Positions 29,178-59,200 of a stretch of 64,000 bases of DNA are shown piece after piece. The notes below the pieces were generated by a model. The model was given only the letters and a program-made list of their open reading frames with translations. It ran no database searches and was not told the origin of the DNA. The stretch lies in the NCBI RefSeq assembly GCF_016903815.1, contig NZ_CP069974.1; one strand, 5' to 3'. The number at the start of each line of letters is the position of its first letter. Position 1 is the first letter of the stretch. The DNA is from Escherichia coli (GTDB lineage Bacteria; Pseudomonadota; Gammaproteobacteria; Enterobacterales; Enterobacteriaceae). The translations under genes and the position numbers were made by a program.

Positions 29178-31561
29178 GTGCGACAGGAAGTCGCTTAACG
29201 TATTGTTTTACATTGATAAAACCAGCTATCCCATTAGCTGTAGCCTACCGGGACAGGCGTTGCCGGCAACGGCGGGGTCTGAAGCTCCCGGGACAACGAG
29301 AGCCGGGCGTCAGCCCGGGTAATGCCCCGTGAGGGGCTTTACCTTGCTGCAAGCATCATGCGGCAGGAGAGCAAGGCTGGTCAGAAGGGTTAACACATGT
29401 GAACTGTTGATAAACACCGTTATCGGCAACAGGCCAAAGATGCTGACAGGCCTGAACCAAAAGGTACGGGGTCCGGTTGCTACCTCGCGCACAGGGAGCA
29501 CATGGGCGCAGAGACCCCCGGTGAAGAGACAGAACCCGCCCTGACCCTCTGTATGTTAAGCGGAACCTGGTAAACCCGTATCGCTGCCTCACAGGCAGGT
29601 GAACCGCAAGGAACACTGTTAGCGGTGCGGGCATAGGAGGACGGAAAAAGCGAATGCCCGGCTGTAATAACCGGGATACGGGGCAGGTTCCCCGACGCGA
29701 AAGCGGGCAGACTTCCGTCTGGTCTTTAATTGCATGAAAAGCTGTAAAGCAGTCAAAAGGATATCAGCGAGATGAATACACACATCAGTGTGTCCACGAT
29801 ACCCCACCCGACAGGCTGGCACACCATAAACTGGAAAGCATGCCATGCCCGGGTGCGAAAGCTACAGTTACGGATTGCAAAGGCAACCCGACAGCAACAA
29901 TGGCGGCAGGTCAGAGAACTACAGCGCATCCTCACCCGCTCATTCTCCGGCAAAGCCGTGGCTGTCAGGCGTGTAACTGAAAATACCGGTAAAAGGACAC
30001 CCGGTATTGACGGAAAAATATGGCACACACCGAAGGAGAAATGGGAAGGAATATGCAGCCTGAATCTGTGTGGTTACAGGCCACAGCCACTACGGCGAAT
30101 ACATATCCCAAAATCAAACGGCAAAACGCGACCGCTGGGCATACCCACAATGAGGGACCGGGCCATGCAGGCACTGTGGCTGCTGGCTCTGGAACCCGTA
30201 TCCGAGACCACTGCTGACCATAACAGCTATGGTTTCAGACCAATGCGCAGCACGCATGACGCCATTGAGTCCATTTTTCTGCGGATGAGCCAGAAAGTAT
30301 CGCCCAAATGGATACTGGAGGGCGATATTAAAGGGTGCTTCGATAACATCAGCCATGACTGGCTGCTTTCCCATATTCCGATGGACAGGAGACTGCTTAA
30401 AAAATGGTTGAAAGCAGGTTACATGGAAAGAGGCGTGTTTAACCATACGAACAGCGGGACACCGCAGGGAGGCATCATATCCCCTGTTCTCGCCAACATG
30501 GCTCTGGACGGACTGGAGAAGGAACTGATGCAAACGTTCAGGAAAAGTGGTTATCACAGTGCAAAGCACCAGGTGAATTATGTGAGATATGCTGATGATT
30601 TCATCTGTTCAGGCAGCTCCCGTGAATTGCTGGAAAATGAGGTCAGACCACTGATTGCAGCTTTCATGCGCGAACGAGGGCTGGAACTGTCGGAAGAAAA
30701 AACAGCGATCACACATATAGATAAAGGCTTCGACTTTTTAGGGCAGAACGTCAGGAAGTACAACGGTAAAATGCTGATTAAACCGTCGAAGAAAAACCTG
30801 AAGAACTTCCTCTGTAAAGTCAGAGAAATAATTAAACGCAATCCGACGCTCCCGGCATGGAAACTGATAGGCCAGCTAAACCCGGTGATCCGGGGATGGG
30901 CTACCTATCACCGACACGTCGTGGCGAAAGAAACATTTAATTATGTCGACACCCAAATCTGGCGAGCTATATGGCGATGGTGTGTAAGACGGCATCCCCG
31001 GAAAGGATTGCGGTGGATCGCCGGACGATACTTCTCCTTTGAAGGCAGGCGCTGGATCTTTAAAGCCATAACCCCGGAAGGGAAAATTCTGACACTCTTC
31101 CGGGCAATGGAAACACCGATAAAGCGCCATATAAAAATCAAAGGCGAAGCAACACCATACACCCCCGGAATGGAAATCTACTTTGAACGTCGTCTGGATC
31201 TAATCTGGAAAGGCAAATCAAAGAAGATGAAGACAGTAGTTCAACTCTGGAAGAGGCAGGGGAAACACTGTCCGCAGTGCGGACAACTCATAACCAACCA
31301 GACCGGATGGAATATACATCACCGGATCAGGAAAGTTATGGGCGGCAGTGACGAACTGACCAATCTCGAGTTGTTACATCCGAACTGCCACCGACAGTTA
31401 CACAGCAGGGAAGCCGGTGCTCACCGAAAGCACTTATAAAGGCTTGAGCGGAGTGCGGGGAAACTCGCACGCTCCGTTCTTAGGGGGCGGCGGCGCAGCA
31501 ATGTGCCGCTGCTACCCGACCCGGCAGACAGGACAACACTGCAGTAGTCAGAATCAGAGCA
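29178..31561 (+). mobile_element. group II intron copy 2
   Basis: Identical to copy 1 across the IEP and flanking RNA domains; same junction with the upstream repeat. Confidence 0.75.
29772..31439 (+). CDS. group II intron-encoded RT/maturase/HNH (copy 2)
   Basis: 555-aa protein identical to the copy 1 IEP. Confidence 0.9.
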   Translation: MNTHISVSTIPHPTGWHTINWKACHARVRKLQLRIAKATRQQQWRQVRELQRILTRSFSGKAVAVRRVTENTGKRTPGIDGKIWHTPKEKWEGICSLNLCGYRPQPLRRIHIPKSNGKTRPLGIPTMRDRAMQALWLLALEPVSETTADHNSYGFRPMRSTHDAIESIFLRMSQKVSPKWILEGDIKGCFDNISHDWLLSHIPMDRRLLKKWLKAGYMERGVFNHTNSGTPQGGIISPVLANMALDGLEKELMQTFRKSGYHSAKHQVNYVRYADDFICSGSSRELLENEVRPLIAAFMRERGLELSEEKTAITHIDKGFDFLGQNVRKYNGKMLIKPSKKNLKNFLCKVREIIKRNPTLPAWKLIGQLNPVIRGWATYHRHVVAKETFNYVDTQIWRAIWRWCVRRHPRKGLRWIAGRYFSFEGRRWIFKAITPEGKILTLFRAMETPIKRHIKIKGEATPYTPGMEIYFERRLDLIWKGKSKKMKTVVQLWKRQGKHCPQCGQLITNQTGWNIHHRIRKVMGGSDELTNLELLHPNCHRQLHSREAGAHRKHL

Positions 31562-31577
31562 GCAGGAAAAAGAAGAA

Positions 31578-31616
31578 CAGTAGCAGTAGCAGTAGCAGTA
31601 GCAGTAGCAGTAGCAG
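31578..31616. repeat. hexanucleotide simple sequence repeat (CAGTAG)x6
   Basis: cagtagcagtagcagtagcagtagcagtagcagtagcag directly 3' of intron copy 2; not expanded at the equivalent position after copy 3. Confidence 0.9.
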
Positions 31617-31791
31617 GAACAACAACATCAGTAACAGACAAATGACAGGCATGAAGAAACAGAAGCCCCCATCAGAACGTCCGCGTAATGAAAGGGGCGG
31701 CGCGTGAGCGCGGCCCCTTTCAGCGCCACCGGCGCGCGTTTTTTCCCGGCGCGGGCAGACAGGCATTTATCCTCCCGCCGGCCCTGTGTCA

Positions 31792-42785: not shown

Positions 42786-43180
42786 ATAGTCTGATCGACA
42801 ATACAAGTGGGACCGTGGTCCCAGACCGATAATCAGACCGACAACACGAGTGGGATCGTGGTCCCAGACTAATAATCAGACCGACGATACGAGTGGGACC
42901 GTGGTCCCAGACTAATAATCAGACCGACGATACGAGTGGGACCGTGGTCCCAGACTAATAATCAGACCGACGATACGAGTGGGACCATGGTCCCAGACTA
43001 ATAATCAGACCGACGATACGAGTGGGACCATGGTCCCAGACTAATAATCAGACCGACGATACGAGTGGGACCGTGGTCCCAGACTAATAATCAGACCGAC
43101 GATACGAGTGGGACCGTGGTCCCAGTCTGATTATCAGACCGACGATACAAGTGGAACAGTGGGCCCAGAGAGAATATTCA
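42786..43180. repeat. sopC: sopC partition centromere (tandem 43-bp repeats with internal GGGACCGTGGTCCC palindrome)
   Basis: About 8-9 tandem 43-bp units directly downstream of sopB. Confidence 0.9.
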
Positions 43181-46839: not shown

Positions 46840-47045
46840 GCAATCTGTCACAGGGTTAAGGGCAATTTGTCACAGACAGGACTGTCATTTGAGGGTAATT
46901 TGTCACACTGAAAGGGCAATTTGTCACAACACCTTCTCTAGAACCAGCATGGATAAAGGCCTACAAGGCGCTCTAAAAAAGAAGATCTAAAAACTATAAA
47001 AAAAATAATTATAAAAATATCCCCGTGGATAAGTGGATAACCCCA
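46840..47045. other. ori2 (oriS) of RepFIA: four iterons, AT-rich stretch and two DnaA boxes
   Basis: Four direct repeats (GAGGGCAATCTGTCACAGG etc.) at 46840-46930, AT-rich region, GTGGATAAGTGGATAAC DnaA-box pair near 47023-47040. Confidence 0.8.
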
Positions 47046-49234: not shown

Positions 49235-49355
49235 AGATCCGTAACTGCCGGAAACCGGATCTCAGAAGAGAAAAAGAAGAGTTGTTGCAAGATAAGCACA
49301 AAAAATGGTGGTTTGTTGAGATATGGTAATTATTGCTCAGTGGGCAAAATTCAGA
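49235..49355 (+). repeat. island repeat R copy 1 (GATCCG-N13-CGGATC hairpin, purine-rich tract, mini-ORF)
   Basis: AGATCCGtaactgccggaaacCGGATCT then CAGAAGAGAAAAAGAAGAG...ATGGTGGTTTGTTGA...ATTATTGCT...GCAAAATT; homologous to the copies at 51190 and 57888. Confidence 0.6.
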
Positions 49356-51370: not shown

Positions 51371-54300
51371 TCAGCGATGTTCAAACCGCGCCACTGGAGT
51401 ATCAGTGATTTCCATCTCTATTTCCCAGAGCGTTTTCATCACACCTTCAAGTGGATCGTCGCTGCTGCGGTAGAAGGTATTGAAAAGGGTTCCATCCGGA
51501 TACCTGAACAGCCTGAGTTCACCAAAGGATTCAGCACTGACCATAAGCGAAAACTCCTGTTCGGAATTGAGGACAAGGTAAATAAGACAGTTATTGATCC
51601 TGAAGGGCAGAGAGCGGCTACCCCTGGCCGATACATCAACATGTATGCTAAACGCGTCATGCCTTTCCGGCTGATAGACCAGTTCCCTCAGTTCCTCGCT
51701 GAAGCGGGAACCATAGATCACCAGAATGTAGTTATTCTGATCAGCGGACCGTTGCGCGACTTCCATTAACAGCGTTTCGAGGTTATTGACCTCAATCGTT
51801 AATTTAGCCTGTGACTGCCACAGTACATAATGCAGTCTGCGGAGAATATTTCTGTTCACTTCTGATACCGAAGGGAAATCTCCGTAGTCAGTCTGATTAA
51901 GCTCTCTGGCAACATACTCTTTGGAAACACCAACAGGAATATATATCGCCAGCCAGTTGCGATCACATTCTGAATTTTGAGTAAACGTGAAGTATTTAAG
52001 CAGAACATCTTCAGACAATGCCCCAGGAAGTTCATTTGTAAGACGAGCATCAGTGTTTCTCAGTCGAGCCTGGTCTACTTCAGCAGCAACGATATCTGCC
52101 GTTTTACTACGACTGAATACATCTATGTATTTATCCAGAACATCATTAAAGAACACCACATTCGTTGCATAATCCGCTTCTGAAATGATATAACCTTCAT
52201 AGGGAACTGAAGGGTCTCGTTTCAGTCGTTTAAGAATAGAAATTATTCTGTCTTTACTGGAATAGGAAAACACCCCTCCAGCCAGGGCTTCATTAACACG
52301 CTGTGTAACCTGCTCCGCAGGCCTTGCGAGCTTTATAGCCAGCAAGGCAAACGCCCCGTAGAGACTCCCTAAATCTTCATATTCCCCTGTATACATACGC
52401 CCGGGAATGTAAGGCCTTTCATTATATGAGTTCATAACCTCAATGGTTTCTGATAACCCGCTGTACCAGCTTGTATTCGTATGCAGATTGCAGTGCTCAA
52501 TTCTCAGTATCATGTCAATGATATCGACAGAACGTCTGAATGCAGGCGTCAGCGTGTCATGTGTATCTCTATCTTCATATAATTCAGACATAATGAGATG
52601 ATTCACAAGATCGGCTAAGTCTATATTTTTTTGCGATTCAAAATGAGCAATAAGATACCCTGCCATTAACAACCGCAAATCGGATAAGGCATTTGCAAAC
52701 ATAATGGACAAAGCGGCATCTTTTTTATACTTGCTGCCCCTGAGTAACATATTCCACTGCGGTTCTGTCTCCTTCAGGGACAGATAATCCGGAGTCAGGA
52801 AGAAACTGTGCCAGCGGTACTCTTCCTCCCAGTAACGTGTAAACCGGCTCTGATTAAACCAGAGGCAGAGAACGTCGTGAGCATATCGCACGGAAGAGGC
52901 ATTATCGGCAACCACTGACGGAATAAGAAGCCTGGCGGTATTATGCAGATGATACATCAGGCGGCCAGTAGAATCTTCACTCCCGGGTTTGCCAGTGATC
53001 GTGGTCATACTCCAGCCTTCCCACAGTCCGATATACCCGCGGATAAGGGCCTGGTGAGTCAGCTCCTGGCTGGCCGAGAGGGGGCCCCCCAGTCCCGCTT
53101 TCCACTCGTTTAACACATGCCACACCCTGAAAAGCGAGAGTAAAAACTGTCTGAAATCGGTAAAACACGTGCTCTGTGTTTTTCTGTACACACGCAATGG
53201 AATGAGCATCGATTCACGGAAATATTCGCCTGAATATTCCGTTGATTTTACGGATTCACGAAAAAACTTTCTCAATTCATAATGGAATGAATCGCTGAAA
53301 GTATGGCTAAAACCTGATTCTTTTACTTCATCCAGATAATTTTTATCGACCTCGTAATTGTAACTTCTTTTGATAGAGGTATAGGTATCTGTTAATCGTT
53401 CAATCCCTGTTCTGAAGACGCTAATATTTTTATCGTTAAGCGCATCGTAAGCCTCACCAAAGAAATCAAAAGTAATATCATCCAGATCCCTTTTGTTCTC
53501 AGGGCGCCCTGTTACAATACAACGACGCAATAACCACCGCCACAATCCTGAAACAGGCTTGACATTTCTCGATGACAATAAAGTCAGTTCACCAGAACGA
53601 ACACCAAAGGAGGGCAGAATGATAATTTCCGCATCCTGCCCATCTACCGCCTCTAGCCTTCTCAGTAGGAATAAAAAAGGCCTTATATAAATATCAGTAA
53701 CAACATCACCTTTACTGATATTAGATTTAACATGAAGCATATCGTCTTTCTCAGAAATTGAGTAAGGCAGTATTTTAATATTACCGAGGTAATTTTGACC
53801 TACATGACCCCCCGGGTAACGCAGCCACGCCTGAATATATGCTTTTTGAATGTAGTCATCCACTATCTGAGATAAAAAAAACTTATTCATTAGTCGATCG
53901 CGTTTGCTCTCATCCAGGACATTCAGACTGGAGACGAAGAACCAGATAGACAGAATAATATTGAAAAGCATCCACACAAAAGCTGTTACGGCAAAAGAAG
54001 TATTAAGATATCCGTCACCTATAGATAACGTCATACCGCCCAGCACGACAAATGCAGCCAGTGAAAGACCACTCAGGCCCGCAAACATATATCCGGAATG
54101 AAGTTGATACGCGGACTGAATATGGATCCTTGCTGATTTCTTTTGAAATAAAACACTTATAAGCCCCACAACCAGCGGAAATACAATACCGATTATAGTC
54201 AACTGGCTACCCAGTAAATTAGACATCCAATCTGAAAGCTTGGTAATGCCCTTAAAATGCTGCACAGCGAAAGGTAGCAATACAGGGCGAAAATATTCGA

Positions 54301-54490
54301 CCACGCCAACAGCCCCGAAGGCTGCGGACCATAGAACCAGCATAGCCCGGACGTAATGGGTGGAGCAGGAAACAAGTATTCTCTCCACCGGGTTCCAGCG
54401 AAGTTTTTTGTAATCCCGGTTCGACTTCAGGCTCCGTCGGAGTTCAGCTCTCACCTGCCATGAGACACTTTTCAGAAGTTTTCCAAACAT
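51371..54490 (-). CDS. large membrane-anchored protein of unknown function (1039 aa, four N-terminal TM segments)
   Basis: Uninterrupted 3.1-kb ORF in an AT-rich island; four hydrophobic segments within the first ~200 aa, ~840-aa soluble C-terminal region with no recognisable catalytic motif. Confidence 0.7.
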   Translation of the reverse strand: MFGKLLKSVSWQVRAELRRSLKSNRDYKKLRWNPVERILVSCSTHYVRAMLVLWSAAFGAVGVVEYFRPVLLPFAVQHFKGITKLSDWMSNLLGSQLTIIGIVFPLVVGLISVLFQKKSARIHIQSAYQLHSGYMFAGLSGLSLAAFVVLGGMTLSIGDGYLNTSFAVTAFVWMLFNIILSIWFFVSSLNVLDESKRDRLMNKFFLSQIVDDYIQKAYIQAWLRYPGGHVGQNYLGNIKILPYSISEKDDMLHVKSNISKGDVVTDIYIRPFLFLLRRLEAVDGQDAEIIILPSFGVRSGELTLLSSRNVKPVSGLWRWLLRRCIVTGRPENKRDLDDITFDFFGEAYDALNDKNISVFRTGIERLTDTYTSIKRSYNYEVDKNYLDEVKESGFSHTFSDSFHYELRKFFRESVKSTEYSGEYFRESMLIPLRVYRKTQSTCFTDFRQFLLSLFRVWHVLNEWKAGLGGPLSASQELTHQALIRGYIGLWEGWSMTTITGKPGSEDSTGRLMYHLHNTARLLIPSVVADNASSVRYAHDVLCLWFNQSRFTRYWEEEYRWHSFFLTPDYLSLKETEPQWNMLLRGSKYKKDAALSIMFANALSDLRLLMAGYLIAHFESQKNIDLADLVNHLIMSELYEDRDTHDTLTPAFRRSVDIIDMILRIEHCNLHTNTSWYSGLSETIEVMNSYNERPYIPGRMYTGEYEDLGSLYGAFALLAIKLARPAEQVTQRVNEALAGGVFSYSSKDRIISILKRLKRDPSVPYEGYIISEADYATNVVFFNDVLDKYIDVFSRSKTADIVAAEVDQARLRNTDARLTNELPGALSEDVLLKYFTFTQNSECDRNWLAIYIPVGVSKEYVARELNQTDYGDFPSVSEVNRNILRRLHYVLWQSQAKLTIEVNNLETLLMEVAQRSADQNNYILVIYGSRFSEELRELVYQPERHDAFSIHVDVSARGSRSLPFRINNCLIYLVLNSEQEFSLMVSAESFGELRLFRYPDGTLFNTFYRSSDDPLEGVMKTLWEIEMEITDTPVARFEHR

Positions 54491-54796
54491 AGATATCCTG
54501 CGTATTACATAAGAAATTTTATGAATAATAAGCGGTAGGAACCTTTTTTTCTCTGGAAAATGTCACCCGATACCCTTCATACAGGCTTTGTCATCCTAAA
54601 ATCCGGTTTAACCTTTTTTCGGATCTCCGATAAAAAAGAAAGAAATAGAGATATGCATAAACATATGCCTGGCATCTACATATGCTACCGCTATACATAT
54701 GCCACACATCTGCCTATACTAAACATATGCACACACCCGGTGCTTTGAATATTCCGGATATGTTTCACATATCCATATGCTCGGGAGAGAAAGAAC

Positions 54797-55027
54797 ATGA
54801 GAACCGTATCGATATTTAAAAATGGCAACAACCGCGCCATCCGTCTGCCTCGTGATCTGGATTTTGAGGGGGTGAGCGAGCTCGAGATCGTCCGGGAAGG
54901 GGACAGCATCATCCTGCGCCCCGTCCGGCCAACCTGGGGATCATTCCTAGAGTACGAAAAAGCCGATCCAGATTTTATGGCGGAGCGCGAGGATGTTGTC
55001 AGCGACGAAGGGCGATTTAACCTGTGA
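54797..55027 (+). CDS. vapB: VapB/MvpA antitoxin (AbrB/SpoVT fold)
   Basis: 76 aa MRTVSIFKNGNNRAIRLPRDLDFEGVSELEIVREGDSIILRPV... matches VapB/MvpA-type antitoxins. Confidence 0.85.
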   Translation: MRTVSIFKNGNNRAIRLPRDLDFEGVSELEIVREGDSIILRPVRPTWGSFLEYEKADPDFMAEREDVVSDEGRFNL

Positions 55028-55440
55028 ACAAGACTTATATGCTTGATACCTGTATCTGCTCGTTCATCATGCGTGAACAGCCAGAAGCCGTCCTGAAGCG
55101 TCTGGAGCAGGCGGTGCTACGCGGCCACCGTATAGTGGTCTCGGCCATCACCTACTCTGAAATGCGCTTCGGGGCTACCGGCCCAAAGGCCTCACCACGT
55201 CACGTCCAACTGGTCGATGAATTCTGCGCCCGCCTCGATGCCATCCTGCCCTGGGATCGCGCCGCAGTAGACGCCACCACGAAGATTAAAGTGGCACTGC
55301 GGCTGGCCGGGACGCCGATCGGCCCGAACGACACGGCGATTGCCGGGCACGCCATCGCCGCCGGGGCGATACTGGTAACGAATAATACAAGAGAATTTGA
55401 GCGAGTGCCTGACCTGGTGCTGGAAGACTGGGTGAAGTAA
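55024..55440 (+). CDS. vapC: VapC/MvpT PIN-domain toxin (start GTG 55024 or ATG 55039)
   Basis: MLDTCICSFIMRE...VVSAITYSEMRFG...LVTNNTREFERVPDLVLEDW with PIN acidic residues; overlaps vapB stop. Confidence 0.85.
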   Translation: MNKTYMLDTCICSFIMREQPEAVLKRLEQAVLRGHRIVVSAITYSEMRFGATGPKASPRHVQLVDEFCARLDAILPWDRAAVDATTKIKVALRLAGTPIGPNDTAIAGHAIAAGAILVTNNTREFERVPDLVLEDWVK

Positions 55441-55601
55441 GACACTCTTTTCAAAGTCAGGAGATAAGGGCACCAAGAAACAGCCCGTATACGGGCTGTT
55501 TTAACAGATATCTACAGTAAGCGGTCCTAAACTGTAGGGTATCTTCGAAGATCAGACTATCAGGGAGCTAAAGCCTATCTTCCGGCGGCAAAAACAGTGG
55601 C

Positions 55602-57740
55602 TCAAGCGATACGGGCAACCGAGCTCTGGTTTGCTGCCGGTGGCAGGGCGATGAGCTTGTCACATTCCATAATCACGTACTCCGGGATGAGATCGAATCT
55701 GGACGGATCTAGTTGACAGATGAACTCATTTTCAATGTGGTACGTTTCGTTAACGAATTTTCGTATTACCGGATGGTCCTGATCCAGTTCCAGTAAACGG
55801 AATACCTGCAGTTTTTCATAGCCGTTACGACAGCGACGGTACAGGTTTTTTATTTCATCTGGGCTGCTGACGAGAGCCTGAAGTCGCGGGTAATCAAAAC
55901 TGTCCACATACTCCCGGATATCCCGCAAGGCCTGCTGAATTTTCTCAGGAGCCATTTTGGGATAGCCCGAGCCCGCAGCGGCAGGCTCGCGATAATCCAG
56001 CGGGGCGACGCGTCGATGGAATAGATTGGATAGAAGCTGATAAGCATCACCACGTTCGTCAACGATTTCAAAGTAGCGACGAAGATAGATGAGCTTAATG
56101 ATCTCCTCACAGTCTGCTGACGCGGTGATGGATTTGCAGATCTGCATGAATGTCATGATATCGCCGTCGTTAACAGGTAATTCTTCTATGACTCCAGCAG
56201 ACAGGCGCAGGCAGGAGGCGGTCACCTGATTACTGAACAACCTTCTGACTGACTTCAGCGTGTCAATCACAGGCTCCACGTCATGCGTCAGCATAAGTAC
56301 AGTCCGGTTCTTCAGGCATTCACCACTTGCACGTCTGAACAGCATTTCAAGAATGGCAAACTTCTTGTTTTTATCAAAAGAAGATATGGGATCATCAAGG
56401 ATAATCAGTCCCGGGTTTTTTGACAGGCATTCATACATGAATAACACAATCGCAAAGGCGTTCCGTTCTCCATAGCTGAGATGCTGGCTACCGCCGCTGA
56501 CGTACCCGTCAAAATCTATGTGTCGTAGCCTGAGTTTTCTCTGCTCTCCCTCGCCGGCTATATCCACCCTGTATTTATAGCCTGCATAAGTGAGGAAATT
56601 ATTGATGTTTGTTTTGTGCTGTGCGATCAGCCGGATCATGCTGTCCCGGTGCCGGTTAATTTTTCCCTGCAGCGGTCCGGCAAGGTTTATCAGGTCCATA
56701 AGGGCCGCGTTCAGTCTGTCGGTGATCCCCTGCATGAGTTCGGATTGCAGATCAGGGAAGAACTGCAGGTCAATCAACCTGGCAGTGAGCACCTCCCGAA
56801 CGTTCTGCTGTTCCTGCAGGCTGAAAACATTCAGGCCTCTCAGCGCAGTGAGTTTCTCTGTCAGCGTATCGGTCTGGCGTTTCAACGCCACTAGGTACTC
56901 GATATGTTCGGCTTCCGGACCGTTCTGAAGCATAGTAATGGCCAGAAGGCGTTCTCTGGCGCTCTCCGTCAGGTAATTACCGAGGTTTTCCACCAGTCTG
57001 ATGATAGCGGTCAGGTTTTTAATGGTGGATTTATCGTATTCCTCTCTGACTTGGCGAATTTGTGCTTCCTTTCCCGTGATATCACCGGTACAGAACGGAC
57101 AGCAGCCATCCGAAAGGGGCGAAAACTCGAGTCCCTTTGTCTGCCAGTCAATCCATTCCACGCGGCGTTCACTGCGGATGTAGGGTTGATAGTTCTCAAG
57201 ACCAGCCGGAATGTGGTGTATTTTATTTCCGCCTGACAGACCTCTCATGCCGGTTGAAGAACGTGAAATCCCGGAACTGGTTGATTTGAAAGCATTACTG
57301 AGTTCCTGTAGATGGTCTATCAGAGAGTTCAGCTCAGTGTGATCCGTGAAAACAGCCCGGATCTTTTGCGTCATTTCTTCTATTTCACGCTCTCTTTCCG
57401 CATGGGCTTGATTGCGGATAAGAATATTAAAGCTGTCACTGATGAGCTCGTCCGGTTGGAACGTAAACTGACTGACGTACTCCTCGTTGAAGCACATCAC
57501 GTCCCCAATCCCGTCAGCACCGATGACAATGGGCCCGGTGCTATCGGGGTTTTCTCCGCGCAGCCGGAAGGGCATCAGTGCCTGTAGTCCCTGAATGTCG
57601 TCCCGCGCCGCACAGCTTATGGCCCGTGACAGCGTACTTTTTCCAGTACCATTTGGCGCAAACTTAATGTTCAGTTTATCGGCAGTGAGGGTGATATGTG
57701 CTCGTACGATGTTATTGCAGTGGCGTATTTCAATGTCCAT
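55602..57740 (-). CDS. RloC/Rad50-like ABC ATPase with CxxC hook insert (candidate anticodon nuclease)
   Basis: Walker A APNGTGKST at the N-terminus, long coiled-coil-like insert with CCPFCTGD (CxxC), signature-like LSYGER, Walker B LIILDDP, C-terminal LRRYFEI...H region reminiscent of PrrC/RloC. Confidence 0.45.
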   Translation of the reverse strand: MDIEIRHCNNIVRAHITLTADKLNIKFAPNGTGKSTLSRAISCAARDDIQGLQALMPFRLRGENPDSTGPIVIGADGIGDVMCFNEEYVSQFTFQPDELISDSFNILIRNQAHAEREREIEEMTQKIRAVFTDHTELNSLIDHLQELSNAFKSTSSGISRSSTGMRGLSGGNKIHHIPAGLENYQPYIRSERRVEWIDWQTKGLEFSPLSDGCCPFCTGDITGKEAQIRQVREEYDKSTIKNLTAIIRLVENLGNYLTESARERLLAITMLQNGPEAEHIEYLVALKRQTDTLTEKLTALRGLNVFSLQEQQNVREVLTARLIDLQFFPDLQSELMQGITDRLNAALMDLINLAGPLQGKINRHRDSMIRLIAQHKTNINNFLTYAGYKYRVDIAGEGEQRKLRLRHIDFDGYVSGGSQHLSYGERNAFAIVLFMYECLSKNPGLIILDDPISSFDKNKKFAILEMLFRRASGECLKNRTVLMLTHDVEPVIDTLKSVRRLFSNQVTASCLRLSAGVIEELPVNDGDIMTFMQICKSITASADCEEIIKLIYLRRYFEIVDERGDAYQLLSNLFHRRVAPLDYREPAAAGSGYPKMAPEKIQQALRDIREYVDSFDYPRLQALVSSPDEIKNLYRRCRNGYEKLQVFRLLELDQDHPVIRKFVNETYHIENEFICQLDPSRFDLIPEYVIMECDKLIALPPAANQSSVARIA

Positions 57741-57887
57741 TTATCTGTCCTTTGCCAGTTATTCCGGGGGGATTCATATCCTGCCGCAAAATGTGCCCGC
57801 ATGCTGTGATGCAGATACATAATACATTTCGTTTATACCATTGCTTACACCTCTCCGAGATGTTCATATCAGAAACAAAGATTAGGT

Positions 57888-58020
57888 CGATCCGACTTTT
57901 ACTTTTTTCGGATCTCTGGAGAGGGGAAGAAGGATTTGTGCTGATGATGCAATACTAATGATATATTTTGAACTTAATTGCATTATTGCTTATCTGGCAT
58001 TAATAACTGAAATACTTTGC
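57888..58020 (+). repeat. island repeat R copy 3
   Basis: GATCCGActtttacttttttCGGATC hairpin, CTGGAGAGGGGAAGAAGG tract, mini-ORF ATGATGCAATACTAA, ATTATTGCTTATCTGGCA...GCATAATTA. Confidence 0.6.
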
Positions 58021-58204
58021 ATAATTATCAATGAAAGAACGAGGCTCATATTTCCCATGTAAATTATATGCCCTTGCAGAGAGCGAGACGGTAGTGAACT
58101 TGCGGCACTAATAATAAACTGTACCGACTCTTCCCGGGCACTGGAATGTTCAGATGTACGACAGAGCCCCGCGCCTTTTGCAATAAATAATTAAAGGACT
58201 GAAC

Positions 58205-59200
58205 ATGGCGACCACAGTAATAGCTGCCTTTAACGAATTTATGAAAGATACCGTGAATCTCAAAAAGGCAGATACCGATGACGCGCGTGCAAGTCGCGAC
58301 TGGCTTATCGGTAAGATGAATGATTTTGAGAAGGACGATAAATTTCCGGTGAGTTTTCCAGCGATCCATATTGCCTTTGGCTCCTTTGCCAGAAGAACCA
58401 AAATCCGTCCGCTTGATGATATCGATCTGATGTTTGGCTTAACCGGGCAAGGTGCCACCTATACCATCCTGAGTGACCGGATAACTGTAACCTCCTCCGG
58501 AGAGGGGTCACGTCTGCACAGTTACCGCCATTCCGGAGCTGACACCGTCTGCTCCGTCAGAATTCTGAATGCCTTTAAAAACCGCCTGCAGGACATTGCC
58601 CAGTACGCCCAGGCTGATATCAGGCGTAACCAGGAAGCTGTCACGCTGAAACTGGTCAGCAAGGACTGGAATTTTGACATCGTCCCCTGCTTTATTACCA
58701 GCGAAGATGCCTTTGGACGGACTTACTACCTGATCCCCGATGGCAACGGCCACTGGAAGTTTACCGACCCCCGTAAAGACAGGGACAGAGTCACTACTAT
58801 CAATGTGCAGAATAACGGCAATGTGCTCAATGTCATCAGAGCAGTCAAATACTGGCAGCGGCGACCGACGATGCCATCCATGAGTTCCTACCTGCTGGAA
58901 ACGCTGATTCTGGACTATTACGCTGGCAGGACATCCTGCTCATCGTTTGTTGACATGGAGCTGGAAGCGCTTTTCCGCCACCTTGGTCAATCCGTGCGGT
59001 ACTCTGTCAACGATCCCAAAGGCATACAGGGTGATATCAACTCACTTTCAGCCGAGGCACGTAAGGCGATATCGGACAGATGTTATCTCGATGCGCAAAA
59101 GGTATCGGAGGCGAGATGGTTTGAAAATAATAAAGAGTATGAAAAATCCATCAATAAATGGCGCGATGTGTTCGGGCCATTCTTTCCTGTTTACGGGTGA
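58205..59200 (+). CDS. CD-NTase/SMODS-like nucleotidyltransferase (CBASS-type cyclase candidate)
   Basis: GS-x11-DID nucleotidyltransferase motif FGSFARRTKIRPLDDIDLMF and downstream third Asp KDWNFDIVPCF; 331 aa. Confidence 0.6.
   Translation: MATTVIAAFNEFMKDTVNLKKADTDDARASRDWLIGKMNDFEKDDKFPVSFPAIHIAFGSFARRTKIRPLDDIDLMFGLTGQGATYTILSDRITVTSSGEGSRLHSYRHSGADTVCSVRILNAFKNRLQDIAQYAQADIRRNQEAVTLKLVSKDWNFDIVPCFITSEDAFGRTYYLIPDGNGHWKFTDPRKDRDRVTTINVQNNGNVLNVIRAVKYWQRRPTMPSMSSYLLETLILDYYAGRTSCSSFVDMELEALFRHLGQSVRYSVNDPKGIQGDINSLSAEARKAISDRCYLDAQKVSEARWFENNKEYEKSINKWRDVFGPFFPVYG

What the first reader, a model, noticed from the sequence alone, without database searches (positions are those of the whole stretch)
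54640..54796. Array of CATATGC repeats in the vapBC upstream region
Upstream of vapB the motif (A)CATATGC recurs at least six times with irregular spacing of roughly 13-25 bp (each contains an NdeI-like palindrome CATATG). The region also carries a partial copy of the island repeat hairpin. This could be an unusually extended VapB/VapBC operator or a binding array for another regulator.
Basis: seen in the sequence. Interest (0 to 1): 0.3.

Follow-up and report, generated by a model that had tools for sequence, protein, structure and literature searches.

The report
VagC antitoxin operator repeat array
The CATATG repeats upstream of vapB are real and strictly phased, and they are most likely the operator-promoter where the plasmid's VagC/VapB antitoxin represses its own toxin-antitoxin operon: an uncharacterised example of a well-known kind of control.

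Summary
The cluster is real. Five exact CATATGC lie in 119 bp, against four other + strand copies in the remaining 64 kb, and composition-matched resampling never reproduces this. The spacing is not irregular. The hexamers sit on a strict 17-bp lattice, alternately 6 and 11 bp apart, forming five head-to-tail units (54656-54740) plus a proximal set (54756-54780).

A conserved promoter-like pair, TATACA-17 bp-TATACT, lies inside the array. In 73 non-redundant vagC-family loci from gamma- and betaproteobacteria, on plasmids and chromosomes with unrelated neighbours, the same (G)CATATG(C) palindrome recurs directly upstream of vapB. It is 57-fold enriched there and keeps the same lattice. Site number ranges from 2 to 19.

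The minimal form is two palindromes 11 bp apart, the first overlapping the -10 box. This matches the solved Caulobacter VapBC1-operator complex. Relatives with a diverged DNA-binding domain carry different motifs.

Best explanation (confidence about 0.8): this is a tandemly amplified autoregulatory operator bound by AbrB-type VagC dimers or VagCD complexes. Binding and the transcription start are inferred, not shown. It is ordinary in kind. I found no description of it in the searchable literature. Interest is modest.

The parts
54601..54624 (.). Conserved inverted-repeat element ATCCGG-N12-TCGGAT (family form ATCCG-N14-CGGATCT), followed by a purine-rich tract (54630-54648). It marks the left edge of the mobile vagCD module.
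   Evidence: Three copies occur in the window. The element is present 190-240 bp upstream of vapB in 20 of 74 family loci. Homology with other plasmids starts at 54597-54610. Its function is unknown.
54650..54655 (+). Extra degenerate hexamer GATATG, abutting unit 1.
   Evidence: One mismatch to CATATG. It lies 6 bp before the first-half hexamer of unit 1.
54656..54672 (+). Unit 1 of the 17-bp lattice: CATAAA CATATG CCTGG.
54673..54689 (+). Unit 2: CATCTA CATATG CTACC.
54690..54706 (+). Unit 3: GCTATA CATATG CCACA. It contains the -35-like hexamer TATACA (54692-54697).
54692..54697 (+). Putative -35 hexamer TATACA.
   Evidence: The promoter scan gives TATACA-17 bp-TATACT. The same hexamer sits at a 17-bp spacer in 38 of 57 family loci that have the core, and canonical TTGACA is there in 4.
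54707..54723 (+). Unit 4: CATCTG CCTATA CTAAA. Its second hexamer is modified into the -10 box.
   Evidence: The segment ACATCTGCCTATACT..ACATATGCACACACC is almost invariant in alignment A2.
54715..54720 (+). Putative -10 hexamer TATACT, embedded in palindrome 1 of the core operator.
   Evidence: TAT[AG]CT inside a hexamer, followed 11-12 bp later by a CATATG-like hexamer, occurs in 57 of 73 loci.
54724..54740 (+). Unit 5: CATATG CACACA CCCGG. CATATGC (54724-54730) is palindrome 2 of the core operator. The predicted transcription start is near 54727; this is inferred, not mapped.
   Evidence: The start position is inferred from the -10 position.
54756..54780 (+). Proximal site set in the predicted leader: perfect inverted repeat GGATATGT-TTC-ACATATCC (54756-54774), overlapping a full unit CATATC CATATG C (54768-54780). 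The hexamers are 11 and 6 bp apart.
   Evidence: It is conserved in type-A relatives L005 and L007-L009.
54783..54789 (+). Shine-Dalgarno-like GGGAGAG, 7 nt before the vapB ATG.
   Evidence: Read from the sequence. It is invariant in alignment A2.
54797..55027 (+). vapB (vagC): a 76-aa antitoxin with an AbrB/MazE-type N-terminal domain.
   Evidence: Pfam PF04014, E = 3.2e-9. PDB relatives include 6ifm, 5k8j and 3zvk.
55024..55440 (+). vapC (vagD): a 138-aa PIN-domain toxin. Its start overlaps the vapB stop by 4 nt.
   Evidence: Pfam PF01850, E = 2.8e-15.

Best explanation
The repeats are the operator-promoter of the vagCD (vapBC-family) toxin-antitoxin operon. The elementary site is the short palindrome (G)CATATG(C).

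Proposed mechanism, inferred by homology:
- One VagC homodimer, with an AbrB/MazE swapped-hairpin fold, reads each palindrome in the major groove.
- Two palindromes 11 bp apart lie on the same face of the helix. They are bridged by one VagC4-VagD4 hetero-octamer, as in C. crescentus VapBC1.
- The ancestral core pair (54713-54729) covers the -10 box TATACT and the predicted start site, so occupancy blocks RNA polymerase.

In the plasmid lineage this 17-bp operator has been amplified head to tail. The window has five units (54656-54740), and the array extends over the -35 hexamer and beyond. A further site set (54756-80) lies in the leader. These extra sites presumably give cooperative, tighter autorepression that depends on the toxin:antitoxin ratio.

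Shown here: the motif, the lattice, its overlap with conserved promoter-like hexamers, its co-inheritance with vapB, and its copy-number variation.

Inferred: binding by VagC or VagCD, the stoichiometry, the start site, and the functional consequence of amplification.
For: 1. The cluster is non-random.
2. The lattice is strict. In 73 non-redundant family loci, distances between sites are almost only 6, 11, 17, 23, 28, 34, 40, 45, 51 and 57 bp.
3. CATATG occurs 162 times in 14.2 kb of upstream DNA, against 5 times in 27.6 kb of control DNA from the same loci. It is present in 67 of 73 loci.
4. Within units the hexamer positions are 88-100% conserved, while the 4-5 spacer positions are near random.
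5. The array stays upstream of vapB whatever the neighbour: IS26, ccdAB, a UvrD-like helicase, or hypothetical genes. It is also there in chromosomal loci of Shewanella, Spongiibacter, Azoarcus and Hahellaceae.
6. The core is a palindrome carrying TAT[AG]CT, followed by a second palindrome 11-12 bp later. It occurs in 57 of 73 loci. A -35-like hexamer lies 17 bp upstream in 53 of the 57, including canonical TTGACA in betaproteobacterial loci.
7. In the C. crescentus VapBC1-DNA structure, a palindromic half-site lies on the -10 box and a second lies about 10 nt downstream at the start site. AbrB dimers of one octamer bind them in adjacent major grooves (PMC5389673). Its VapB aligns to VagC over FKNGNNRAIRLPRDL, including the base-contacting Asn and the phosphate-contacting Arg.
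8. The motif co-varies with the DNA-binding domain. L081 (51% identity) has GTACAC/GTACAT 11 bp apart. Shigella and pSLT VapB (28% identity over 64 residues) use ATATCC/GGATAT sites and have no CATATG.
9. LT2 VapBC footprints two inverted repeats over its -10 and -35 boxes (PMC3378870).
10. A helper plasmid that used this native upstream region as the vapB promoter was reported for plasmid curing (bioRxiv 10.1101/2024.02.01.578384).
Against: - There is no binding, footprint or transcription-start data for this system in the searchable literature.
- The -35 hexamer TATACA is only a 4/6 match, and the promoter scan finds about as many hits in shuffled sequence.
- In the window the first-half hexamers of units 1-3 are degenerate (CATAAA, CATCTA, GCTATA), so distal units could be weak sites or relics.
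- Hexamers only 6 bp apart may not be occupied at the same time, so the stoichiometry is unknown.
- The co-variation evidence rests on few divergent relatives.
Confidence: 0.8

Rival explanations
1. Only the core pair, and perhaps the proximal set, is a functional operator. The additional upstream 17-bp units are neutral products of replication slippage or unequal recombination and have no regulatory role.
For: Unit number changes in exact 17-bp multiples between close relatives. The window and L005 lack 34 bp, and L009 lacks 68 bp, relative to L007/L008, although L008 and L009 share an identical VapB protein. Site number ranges from 2 to 19. The first-half hexamers of the window's distal units are degenerate.
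Against: Across units and loci the hexamer positions stay 88-100% conserved while the spacers drift. Neutral copies should decay uniformly. Long arrays are maintained in many independent lineages.
Confidence: 0.1
2. The array is bound by a different trans-acting regulator, either a host global factor or another plasmid protein, which controls vagCD or the divergent 1039-aa gene.
For: No direct binding data exist. The intergenic region is shared with a divergent gene that starts at 54490. AT-rich hexamer repeats superficially recall Fur-type hexamer arrays (my own knowledge).
Against: The motif follows vapB into chromosomes of distant gamma- and betaproteobacteria and into loci that lack the divergent gene. 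No second cluster exists in the 64-kb window. In a metagenome scan every bacterial-type lattice array was a vagC locus. The motif changes when the VapB N-terminal domain diverges.
Confidence: 0.06
3. The direct repeats are iterons or a centromere-like site that serves plasmid replication, partition or incompatibility.
For: They are tandem direct repeats of about 17 bp on an IncF plasmid that carries several replicons.
Against: No rep or par gene is adjacent here or in the relatives. repE is about 8 kb away and has its own repeats. The repeats occur in chromosomal loci with only two sites. They always lie 20-200 bp upstream of vapB and include its -10 box.
Confidence: 0.02
4. The cluster is a chance feature of AT-rich intergenic DNA.
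For: The region has 38-40% G+C, against 51% for the whole window.
Against: Resampling with local composition never approaches the observed count. AT-rich windows elsewhere hold at most 1 exact copy. The cluster is conserved in 67 of 73 independent loci.
Confidence: 0.01

Closest known systems
Caulobacter crescentus VapBC1 operator (DNA-bound hetero-octamer structure; PMC5389673)
   Same: The VapB is AbrB-type and has a similar N-terminal sequence. A palindromic half-site overlaps the -10 box, and a second half-site lies about one helical turn downstream at the start site. One VapB4C4 octamer reads both in adjacent major grooves. The vagC-family core has the same geometry: two palindromes 11 bp apart, the first carrying the -10 box.
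   Different: The recognised sequence differs. Caulobacter has a single two-half-site operator. The window has about 13 hexamer positions in five tandem 17-bp units plus a leader-proximal set. Nothing is experimentally established for VagC.
Salmonella LT2 / Shigella pMYSH6000 vapBC (mvpAT) operators vapO1 and vapO2 (PMC3378870)
   Same: It is an enterobacterial VapBC with an AbrB-type antitoxin. Its operators overlap the -10 and -35 boxes. It shows autorepression enhanced by VapC and relieved by excess VapC. The short AT-rich half-sites share an ATAT core.
   Different: There are only two inverted repeats, built from ATATCC/GGATAT half-sites about 13-15 bp apart, with no CATATG and no 17-bp lattice. 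VapB is only about 28% identical to VagC. The window's proximal GGATATGT-TTC-ACATATCC resembles vapO1, but the spacing differs.
Rickettsia felis VapBC2 promoter complex (PMC3326315)
   Same: Each AbrB-type VapB2 dimer recognises an internally palindromic AT-rich site with half-sequence A(A/G)TAT, and two sites are bridged by the toxin. This supports the model of one dimer per short palindrome.
   Different: The sites are about 14 bp apart and are approached from different faces of the helix. There is a single operator. The sequence differs.
F-plasmid ccd operator-promoter (multiple CcdA sites over about 110-120 bp; my own knowledge, not checked here)
   Same: It is an extended multi-site toxin-antitoxin operator on the same kind of plasmid. 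Alternating antitoxin-toxin chains are thought to coat a long stretch of promoter DNA.
   Different: The antitoxin is ribbon-helix-helix, the motif differs (GTATAC-type), and I know of no strict tandem 17-bp unit structure or copy-number polymorphism.
Plasmid iterons (RepE, TrfA, pi-type)
   Same: They are tandem direct repeats of 17-22 bp on plasmids.
   Different: Iterons lie in origins beside rep genes and are not palindromic hexamer pairs. This array is tied to vapB and its promoter and also occurs on chromosomes.

Membership tests
Type II VapBC toxin-antitoxin module (AbrB-type VapB + PIN VapC) | The antitoxin has an N-terminal AbrB/MazE swapped-hairpin DNA-binding domain. | tested here: met
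   PF04014, E = 3.2e-9, above the gathering score. PDB VapB relatives 6ifm, 5k8j and 3zvk match with E down to 6e-9.
Type II VapBC toxin-antitoxin module (AbrB-type VapB + PIN VapC) | A PIN-domain toxin gene lies immediately downstream in the same operon. | tested here: met
   PF01850, E = 2.8e-15. vapC starts at 55024, overlapping the vapB stop at 55027. RefSeq annotates the pair as VapB/VapC.
Type II VapBC toxin-antitoxin module (AbrB-type VapB + PIN VapC) | The toxin arrests growth and the antitoxin neutralises it. | not testable with these tools
   A paper states that plasmid vagCD pairs were shown to be functional, citing Duprilot 2017 (PMC7326226). The primary paper is not held.
VapB/VapBC autoregulatory operator | Short palindromic or pseudo-palindromic sites lie in the operon's own promoter, overlapping the -10/-35 boxes or the start site. 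| tested here: met
   The site consensus is (G/A)CAT(A/c)TG(C). TATACA-17 bp-TATACT lies inside the array. The core is conserved in 57 of 73 loci. The promoter itself is predicted, not mapped.
VapB/VapBC autoregulatory operator | Paired sites lie about one helical turn apart, so that one octamer can bridge them. | tested here: met
   The 11-bp spacing dominates (168 pairs), with 6- and 17-bp lattice partners. Minimal loci have two sites 11-12 bp apart.
VapB/VapBC autoregulatory operator | The sites are inherited together with the antitoxin gene, independent of flanking genes. | tested here: met
   Ten plasmid loci have different neighbours. There are 76 genome loci. In the metagenome scan, 23 matches have vagC 64-139 bp downstream.
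VapB/VapBC autoregulatory operator | The operator sequence changes when the DNA-binding domain diverges. | tested here: met
   L081 uses GTACAY sites. Shigella and pSLT VapB use ATATCC sites. Few data points are available.
VapB/VapBC autoregulatory operator | VapB or VapBC physically binds the sites and represses transcription. | not testable with these tools
   This needs EMSA, footprinting and reporter assays. None was found in the literature searches.
Plasmid iterons | The repeats lie within or next to an origin and beside the cognate rep gene. | tested here: not met
   The nearest rep genes are about 7-8 kb away. Relatives have no adjacent rep gene, and some loci are chromosomal.
Binding array of a separate trans-acting regulator | The same site cluster recurs at other promoters of the regulon. 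| tested here: not met
   No other cluster exists in the 64-kb window. The metagenome scan found no bacterial lattice array away from vagC. Host chromosomes were not scanned by pattern.

The most novel reading that the evidence does not exclude
The tandem operator array may be an evolvable copy-number 'rheostat' or antitoxin sink. By gaining or losing 17-bp units (2 to 19 sites across the family), plasmids would tune how much VagC or VagCD is sequestered on DNA. That would set the threshold for toxin release. It might also titrate VagC made by a co-resident vagCD plasmid, making the array a determinant of plasmid-plasmid competition rather than a simple repressor site.
Probability: 0.12. Interest if true: 0.55.

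Novelty: new member of a known kind. Interest (0 to 1): 0.3.

Why it matters
vagCD is one of the commonest addiction modules on IncF, IncR and IncH resistance plasmids of E. coli, Klebsiella and Salmonella. The protein search hit the 5000-record limit, and 837 plasmid records carry most of this 1021-nt query stretch (vapBC plus the intergenic region). Its control region appears uncharacterised.

This work gives a precise, testable model. It defines the recognition palindrome, the 11-bp pairing, the 17-bp unit, and the promoter hexamers embedded in the array. That tells experimenters which bases to mutate and which fragments to use. It also explains the length polymorphisms seen upstream of vagC in plasmid comparisons. 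The natural series from 2 to 19 sites could serve as a ready-made system for studying how operator multiplicity shapes toxin-antitoxin autoregulation.

The element does not overturn current understanding. It fits the standard model of antitoxin autorepression.

Tried and rejected
- RNA element: Rfam at a permissive E-value found nothing in 54300-58300. The predicted leader fold is no better than shuffles, z = -0.3.
- Intrinsic terminator reading of the T-rich hairpin: no terminator-like site was found.
- 'Partial copy of an island repeat' inside 54640-54796: BLAST of the intergenic region against the window gave only one meaningful match, 54613-54627 to 57902-57916. The three 14-nt matches at 18.8, 30.6 and 36.2 kb lie in coding sequence and are at chance level.
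- Exclusivity test by metagenome scan for CATATGC-N4-CATNTGCATATGC. Of 99 hits, 23 had vagC downstream and 2 (L121, L175) were vagC-type arrays, one cut off by the contig end and one an orphan. The other 74 were simple-sequence or microsatellite DNA, a 17-bp minisatellite in ORF-poor eukaryote-like contigs (L095 type), or isolated triple hexamers. The pattern was therefore less specific than I estimated, and the test is only partly informative.
- Cross-talk with an mvpAT-type VapB: no such gene exists in the window.
- Literature searches for a described vagCD operator found none. Duprilot 2017 is not held. Pullinger and Lax 1992 was recalled from memory and was not looked up.

Full report
CONTEXT. 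The window is part of a multireplicon IncF plasmid of E. coli. The 1021 bases around the finding are 100% identical to many E. coli and Klebsiella plasmids; 723 records match at 99% or more. In NZ_CP023378 the genes are annotated as vapB and a VapC-family toxin. They lie between a 1039-aa hypothetical gene and an AAA-family ATPase, a few kb from ccdAB and repE. vapB (54797-55027) encodes a 76-aa protein with an AbrB/MazE-type domain. vapC (55024-55440) encodes a PIN-domain protein. This is the widespread plasmid vagCD pair.

THE OBSERVATION. Exact CATATGC occurs on the + strand at 54662, 54679, 54696, 54724 and 54774, with a degenerate GATATGC at 54650. Only four other + strand copies exist in 64 kb. 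The cluster is the largest non-overlapping 7-mer cluster in the whole window. Two hundred resamplings that preserve local first-order composition never exceed 4 copies. Twenty thousand resamplings of the intergenic region never exceed 2. Of 437 AT-rich 160-nt windows elsewhere, none has more than one exact CATATG. The cluster is therefore real.

The repeat finder gives start-to-start spacings of 17, 17 and 11. When hexamers with one or two mismatches are included, the region resolves into five head-to-tail 17-bp units:
- CATAAA-CATATG-CCTGG
- CATCTA-CATATG-CTACC
- GCTATA-CATATG-CCACA
- CATCTG-CCTATA-CTAAA
- CATATG-CACACA-CCCGG

These span 54656-54740. Each unit holds two hexamers 6 bp apart, followed by a 5-nt spacer, so consecutive hexamers are alternately 6 and 11 bp apart. 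A second small set lies nearer the gene: GATATG (54757), CATATC (54768) and CATATG (54774), again 11 and 6 bp apart. It is embedded in the perfect inverted repeat GGATATGT-TTC-ACATATCC.

PROMOTER. The only sigma-70-like match upstream of vapB is TATACA (54692-54697), a 17-bp spacer, and TATACT (54715-54720). It lies inside the array. On its own this is weak, because the scan finds similar numbers of matches in shuffled sequence. The comparative data below make it credible.

COMPARATIVE EVIDENCE. Ten plasmid loci with vapB homologs were retrieved. Their upstream neighbours are entirely different: small hypothetical genes, IS26, ccdAB, a UvrD-like helicase, and a different large ORF. All carry the same kind of array directly upstream of vapB. 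A scan of one genome per species recovered 76 further loci encoding VagC relatives at 51-97% identity. They come from Enterobacterales and also from Shewanella, Spongiibacter, Hahellaceae, Oceanospirillaceae, Azoarcus and betaproteobacterial MAGs, and many lie on large chromosomal contigs.

In 73 non-redundant upstream regions, CATATG occurs 162 times in 14.2 kb. In control DNA 500-900 bp upstream in the same loci it occurs 5 times in 27.6 kb. It is present in 67 of 73 loci. Distances between sites are almost exclusively 6, 11, 17, 23, 28, 34, 40, 45, 51 and 57 bp, which is a strict lattice. The site consensus is (G/A)CAT(A/c)TG(C), an 8-bp palindrome. In 126 double-hexamer units the hexamer positions are 88-100% conserved, while the spacer positions are close to random. 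That is the signature of selection on the hexamers themselves.

The number of sites per locus runs from 2 to 19. The window has 9 at one mismatch or fewer, spanning 130 bp. Unit number changes in exact multiples of 17 bp between close relatives. The window and L005 lack 34 bp, and L009 lacks 68 bp, relative to L007/L008. L008 and L009 nevertheless encode the identical VapB.

THE MINIMAL FORM. The most divergent loci keep only two palindromes 11-12 bp apart, just upstream of the ribosome-binding site. An example is AGCATATGCTGAAACATATGCC in L066. In the betaproteobacterial loci a canonical TTGACA lies exactly 17 bp upstream of TATGCT, which is part of the first palindrome. Across the family, 57 of 73 loci have TAT[AG]CT inside a hexamer, followed 11-12 bp later by a CATATG-like hexamer. 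In 53 of these the best -35-like hexamer is at a 17-bp spacer; it is TATACA in 38 and TTGACA in 4. The window's unit 4/unit 5 junction (CCTATACTAAACATATGC, 54713-54730) is this core. The 'degenerate' hexamer CCTATA is degenerate because it doubles as the -10 box.

MECHANISM, INFERRED BY HOMOLOGY. VagC's closest solved relatives are VapB antitoxins crystallised with their toxins and, in three cases, with operator DNA.

In C. crescentus VapBC1, a perfectly palindromic half-site overlaps the -10 element and a second half-site lies about 10 nt downstream over the start site. The two AbrB dimers of one VapB4C4 octamer insert into adjacent major grooves from the same side. Base-specific contacts come from Asn13 and Ser11, and phosphate contacts from Arg21 (PMC5389673). 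These residues align with N11, N9 and R19 of VagC, in the segment FKNGNNRAIRLPRDL. That segment is nearly invariant in the CATATG-bearing homologs apart from R13Q, I15V and a few other substitutions.

In R. felis VapBC2, each dimer recognises an internally palindromic AT-rich site (PMC3326315). In Salmonella LT2, VapBC footprints two inverted repeats over the -10 and -35 boxes. VapC enhances binding, and excess VapC releases it (PMC3378870).

The vagC-family core has exactly the Caulobacter geometry. I therefore infer the following:
- One VagC dimer binds per palindrome.
- One octamer binds per 11-bp pair.
- RNA polymerase is occluded at the -10 box and the start site.
- The amplified array provides extra, probably cooperative, binding upstream over the -35 hexamer and in the leader.

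The motif also tracks the protein. L081 has a diverged N-terminus (MHTTRVFKNGNSQAVRIP) and carries GTACAC/GTACAT 11 bp apart instead. Shigella and pSLT VapB, about 28% identical to VagC, have four ATATCC/GGATAT sites and no CATATG.

RIVALS.
- A separate regulator is unlikely. The motif follows vapB across phyla-level host changes and unrelated neighbours, and no other cluster exists in the window.
- Iterons are excluded by context.
- The most serious rival is that only the core is functional and the extra units are neutral slippage products. The unit-number polymorphism fits this. The selective conservation of hexamers over spacers argues against it.
- A metagenome scan for a three-hexamer lattice pattern gave 99 hits. 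Of these, 23 had vagC 64-139 bp downstream and 2 were vagC-type arrays, one cut off by the contig end and one an orphan. The remainder were simple-sequence or eukaryote-like repeats and isolated matches. No bacterial lattice array was seen beside another gene family, but the pattern was less specific than hoped.

COMPARISON AND NOVELTY. In kind, this is a standard type II toxin-antitoxin operator. It differs from the characterised VapBC operators in its recognition sequence and in its head-to-tail amplification into a strictly phased 17-bp array with natural copy-number variation. Multi-site toxin-antitoxin operators are known; the F ccd operator is one example, from my own knowledge. I found no description of the vagCD operator in the searchable literature. 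One preprint used this native region as a vapB promoter without analysing it.

VERDICT.
- The 'extended VapB operator' interpretation is supported by comparative evidence.
- It is a new member of a known kind.
- Interest is about 0.3.

Noticed in passing
window 49237-49260, 54601-54624, 57890-57913: A 24-bp inverted-repeat element, ATCCG-N14-CGGATCT, followed by a purine-rich tract, occurs three times on the + strand. Each copy lies 170-320 bp upstream of a + strand ORF (49477, vapB 54797, 58206). The same element sits about 190-240 bp upstream of vapB in 20 of 74 family loci, and homology breakpoints between plasmids cluster at it. It folds only weakly. It may be a module boundary, a recombination site or a protein-binding site.
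   Followed up: partly
window 55602-57740 (- strand): The 712-aa AAA_13 ATPase immediately downstream of vapC matches the PADLOC candidate phage-defence family PDC-S06 almost end to end (E = 3e-286), so vagCD sits beside a candidate defence gene.
   Followed up: partly
window 51371-54490 (- strand): The 1039-aa ORF divergent from vapB has no Pfam or PADLOC match, and RefSeq annotates it only as hypothetical.
   Followed up: partly
window 54756-54774: The perfect inverted repeat GGATATGT-TTC-ACATATCC in the predicted vapB leader resembles the GGATAT-N9-ATATCC operator of the unrelated Shigella/pSLT vapBC (mvpAT) promoter. No mvpAT-type gene is present in the window.
   Followed up: partly
L058, L076, L077, L079 (genome loci) and L175 (metagenome locus): Loci where vapB is disrupted (an internal stop in L058; truncated or frameshifted in L076, L077 and L079) have few or no CATATG sites. 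L175 keeps a full array and the hairpin, but no vapB follows. Operator and gene appear to decay, or to be separated, together only sometimes.
   Followed up: no
L091, L095, L109, L114, L118, L170 (metagenome contigs JAABU*): A 17-bp minisatellite, TTGCATATGCACTGCAC, has the same 6/11 hexamer spacing but lies in ORF-poor, eukaryote-like DNA with no vapB. It is a coincidental look-alike.
   Followed up: partly
window about 31541-31700, 42815-42900, 46846-46960: Other dense 7-mer clusters were seen in the window: GTAGCAG/GCAGTAG six times near 31.5 kb, CAGACCG/TGGTCCC near 42.8 kb, and TGTCACA/TTGTCAC near 46.85 kb. The last lies close to repE and is probably its repeats. None was examined.
   Followed up: no
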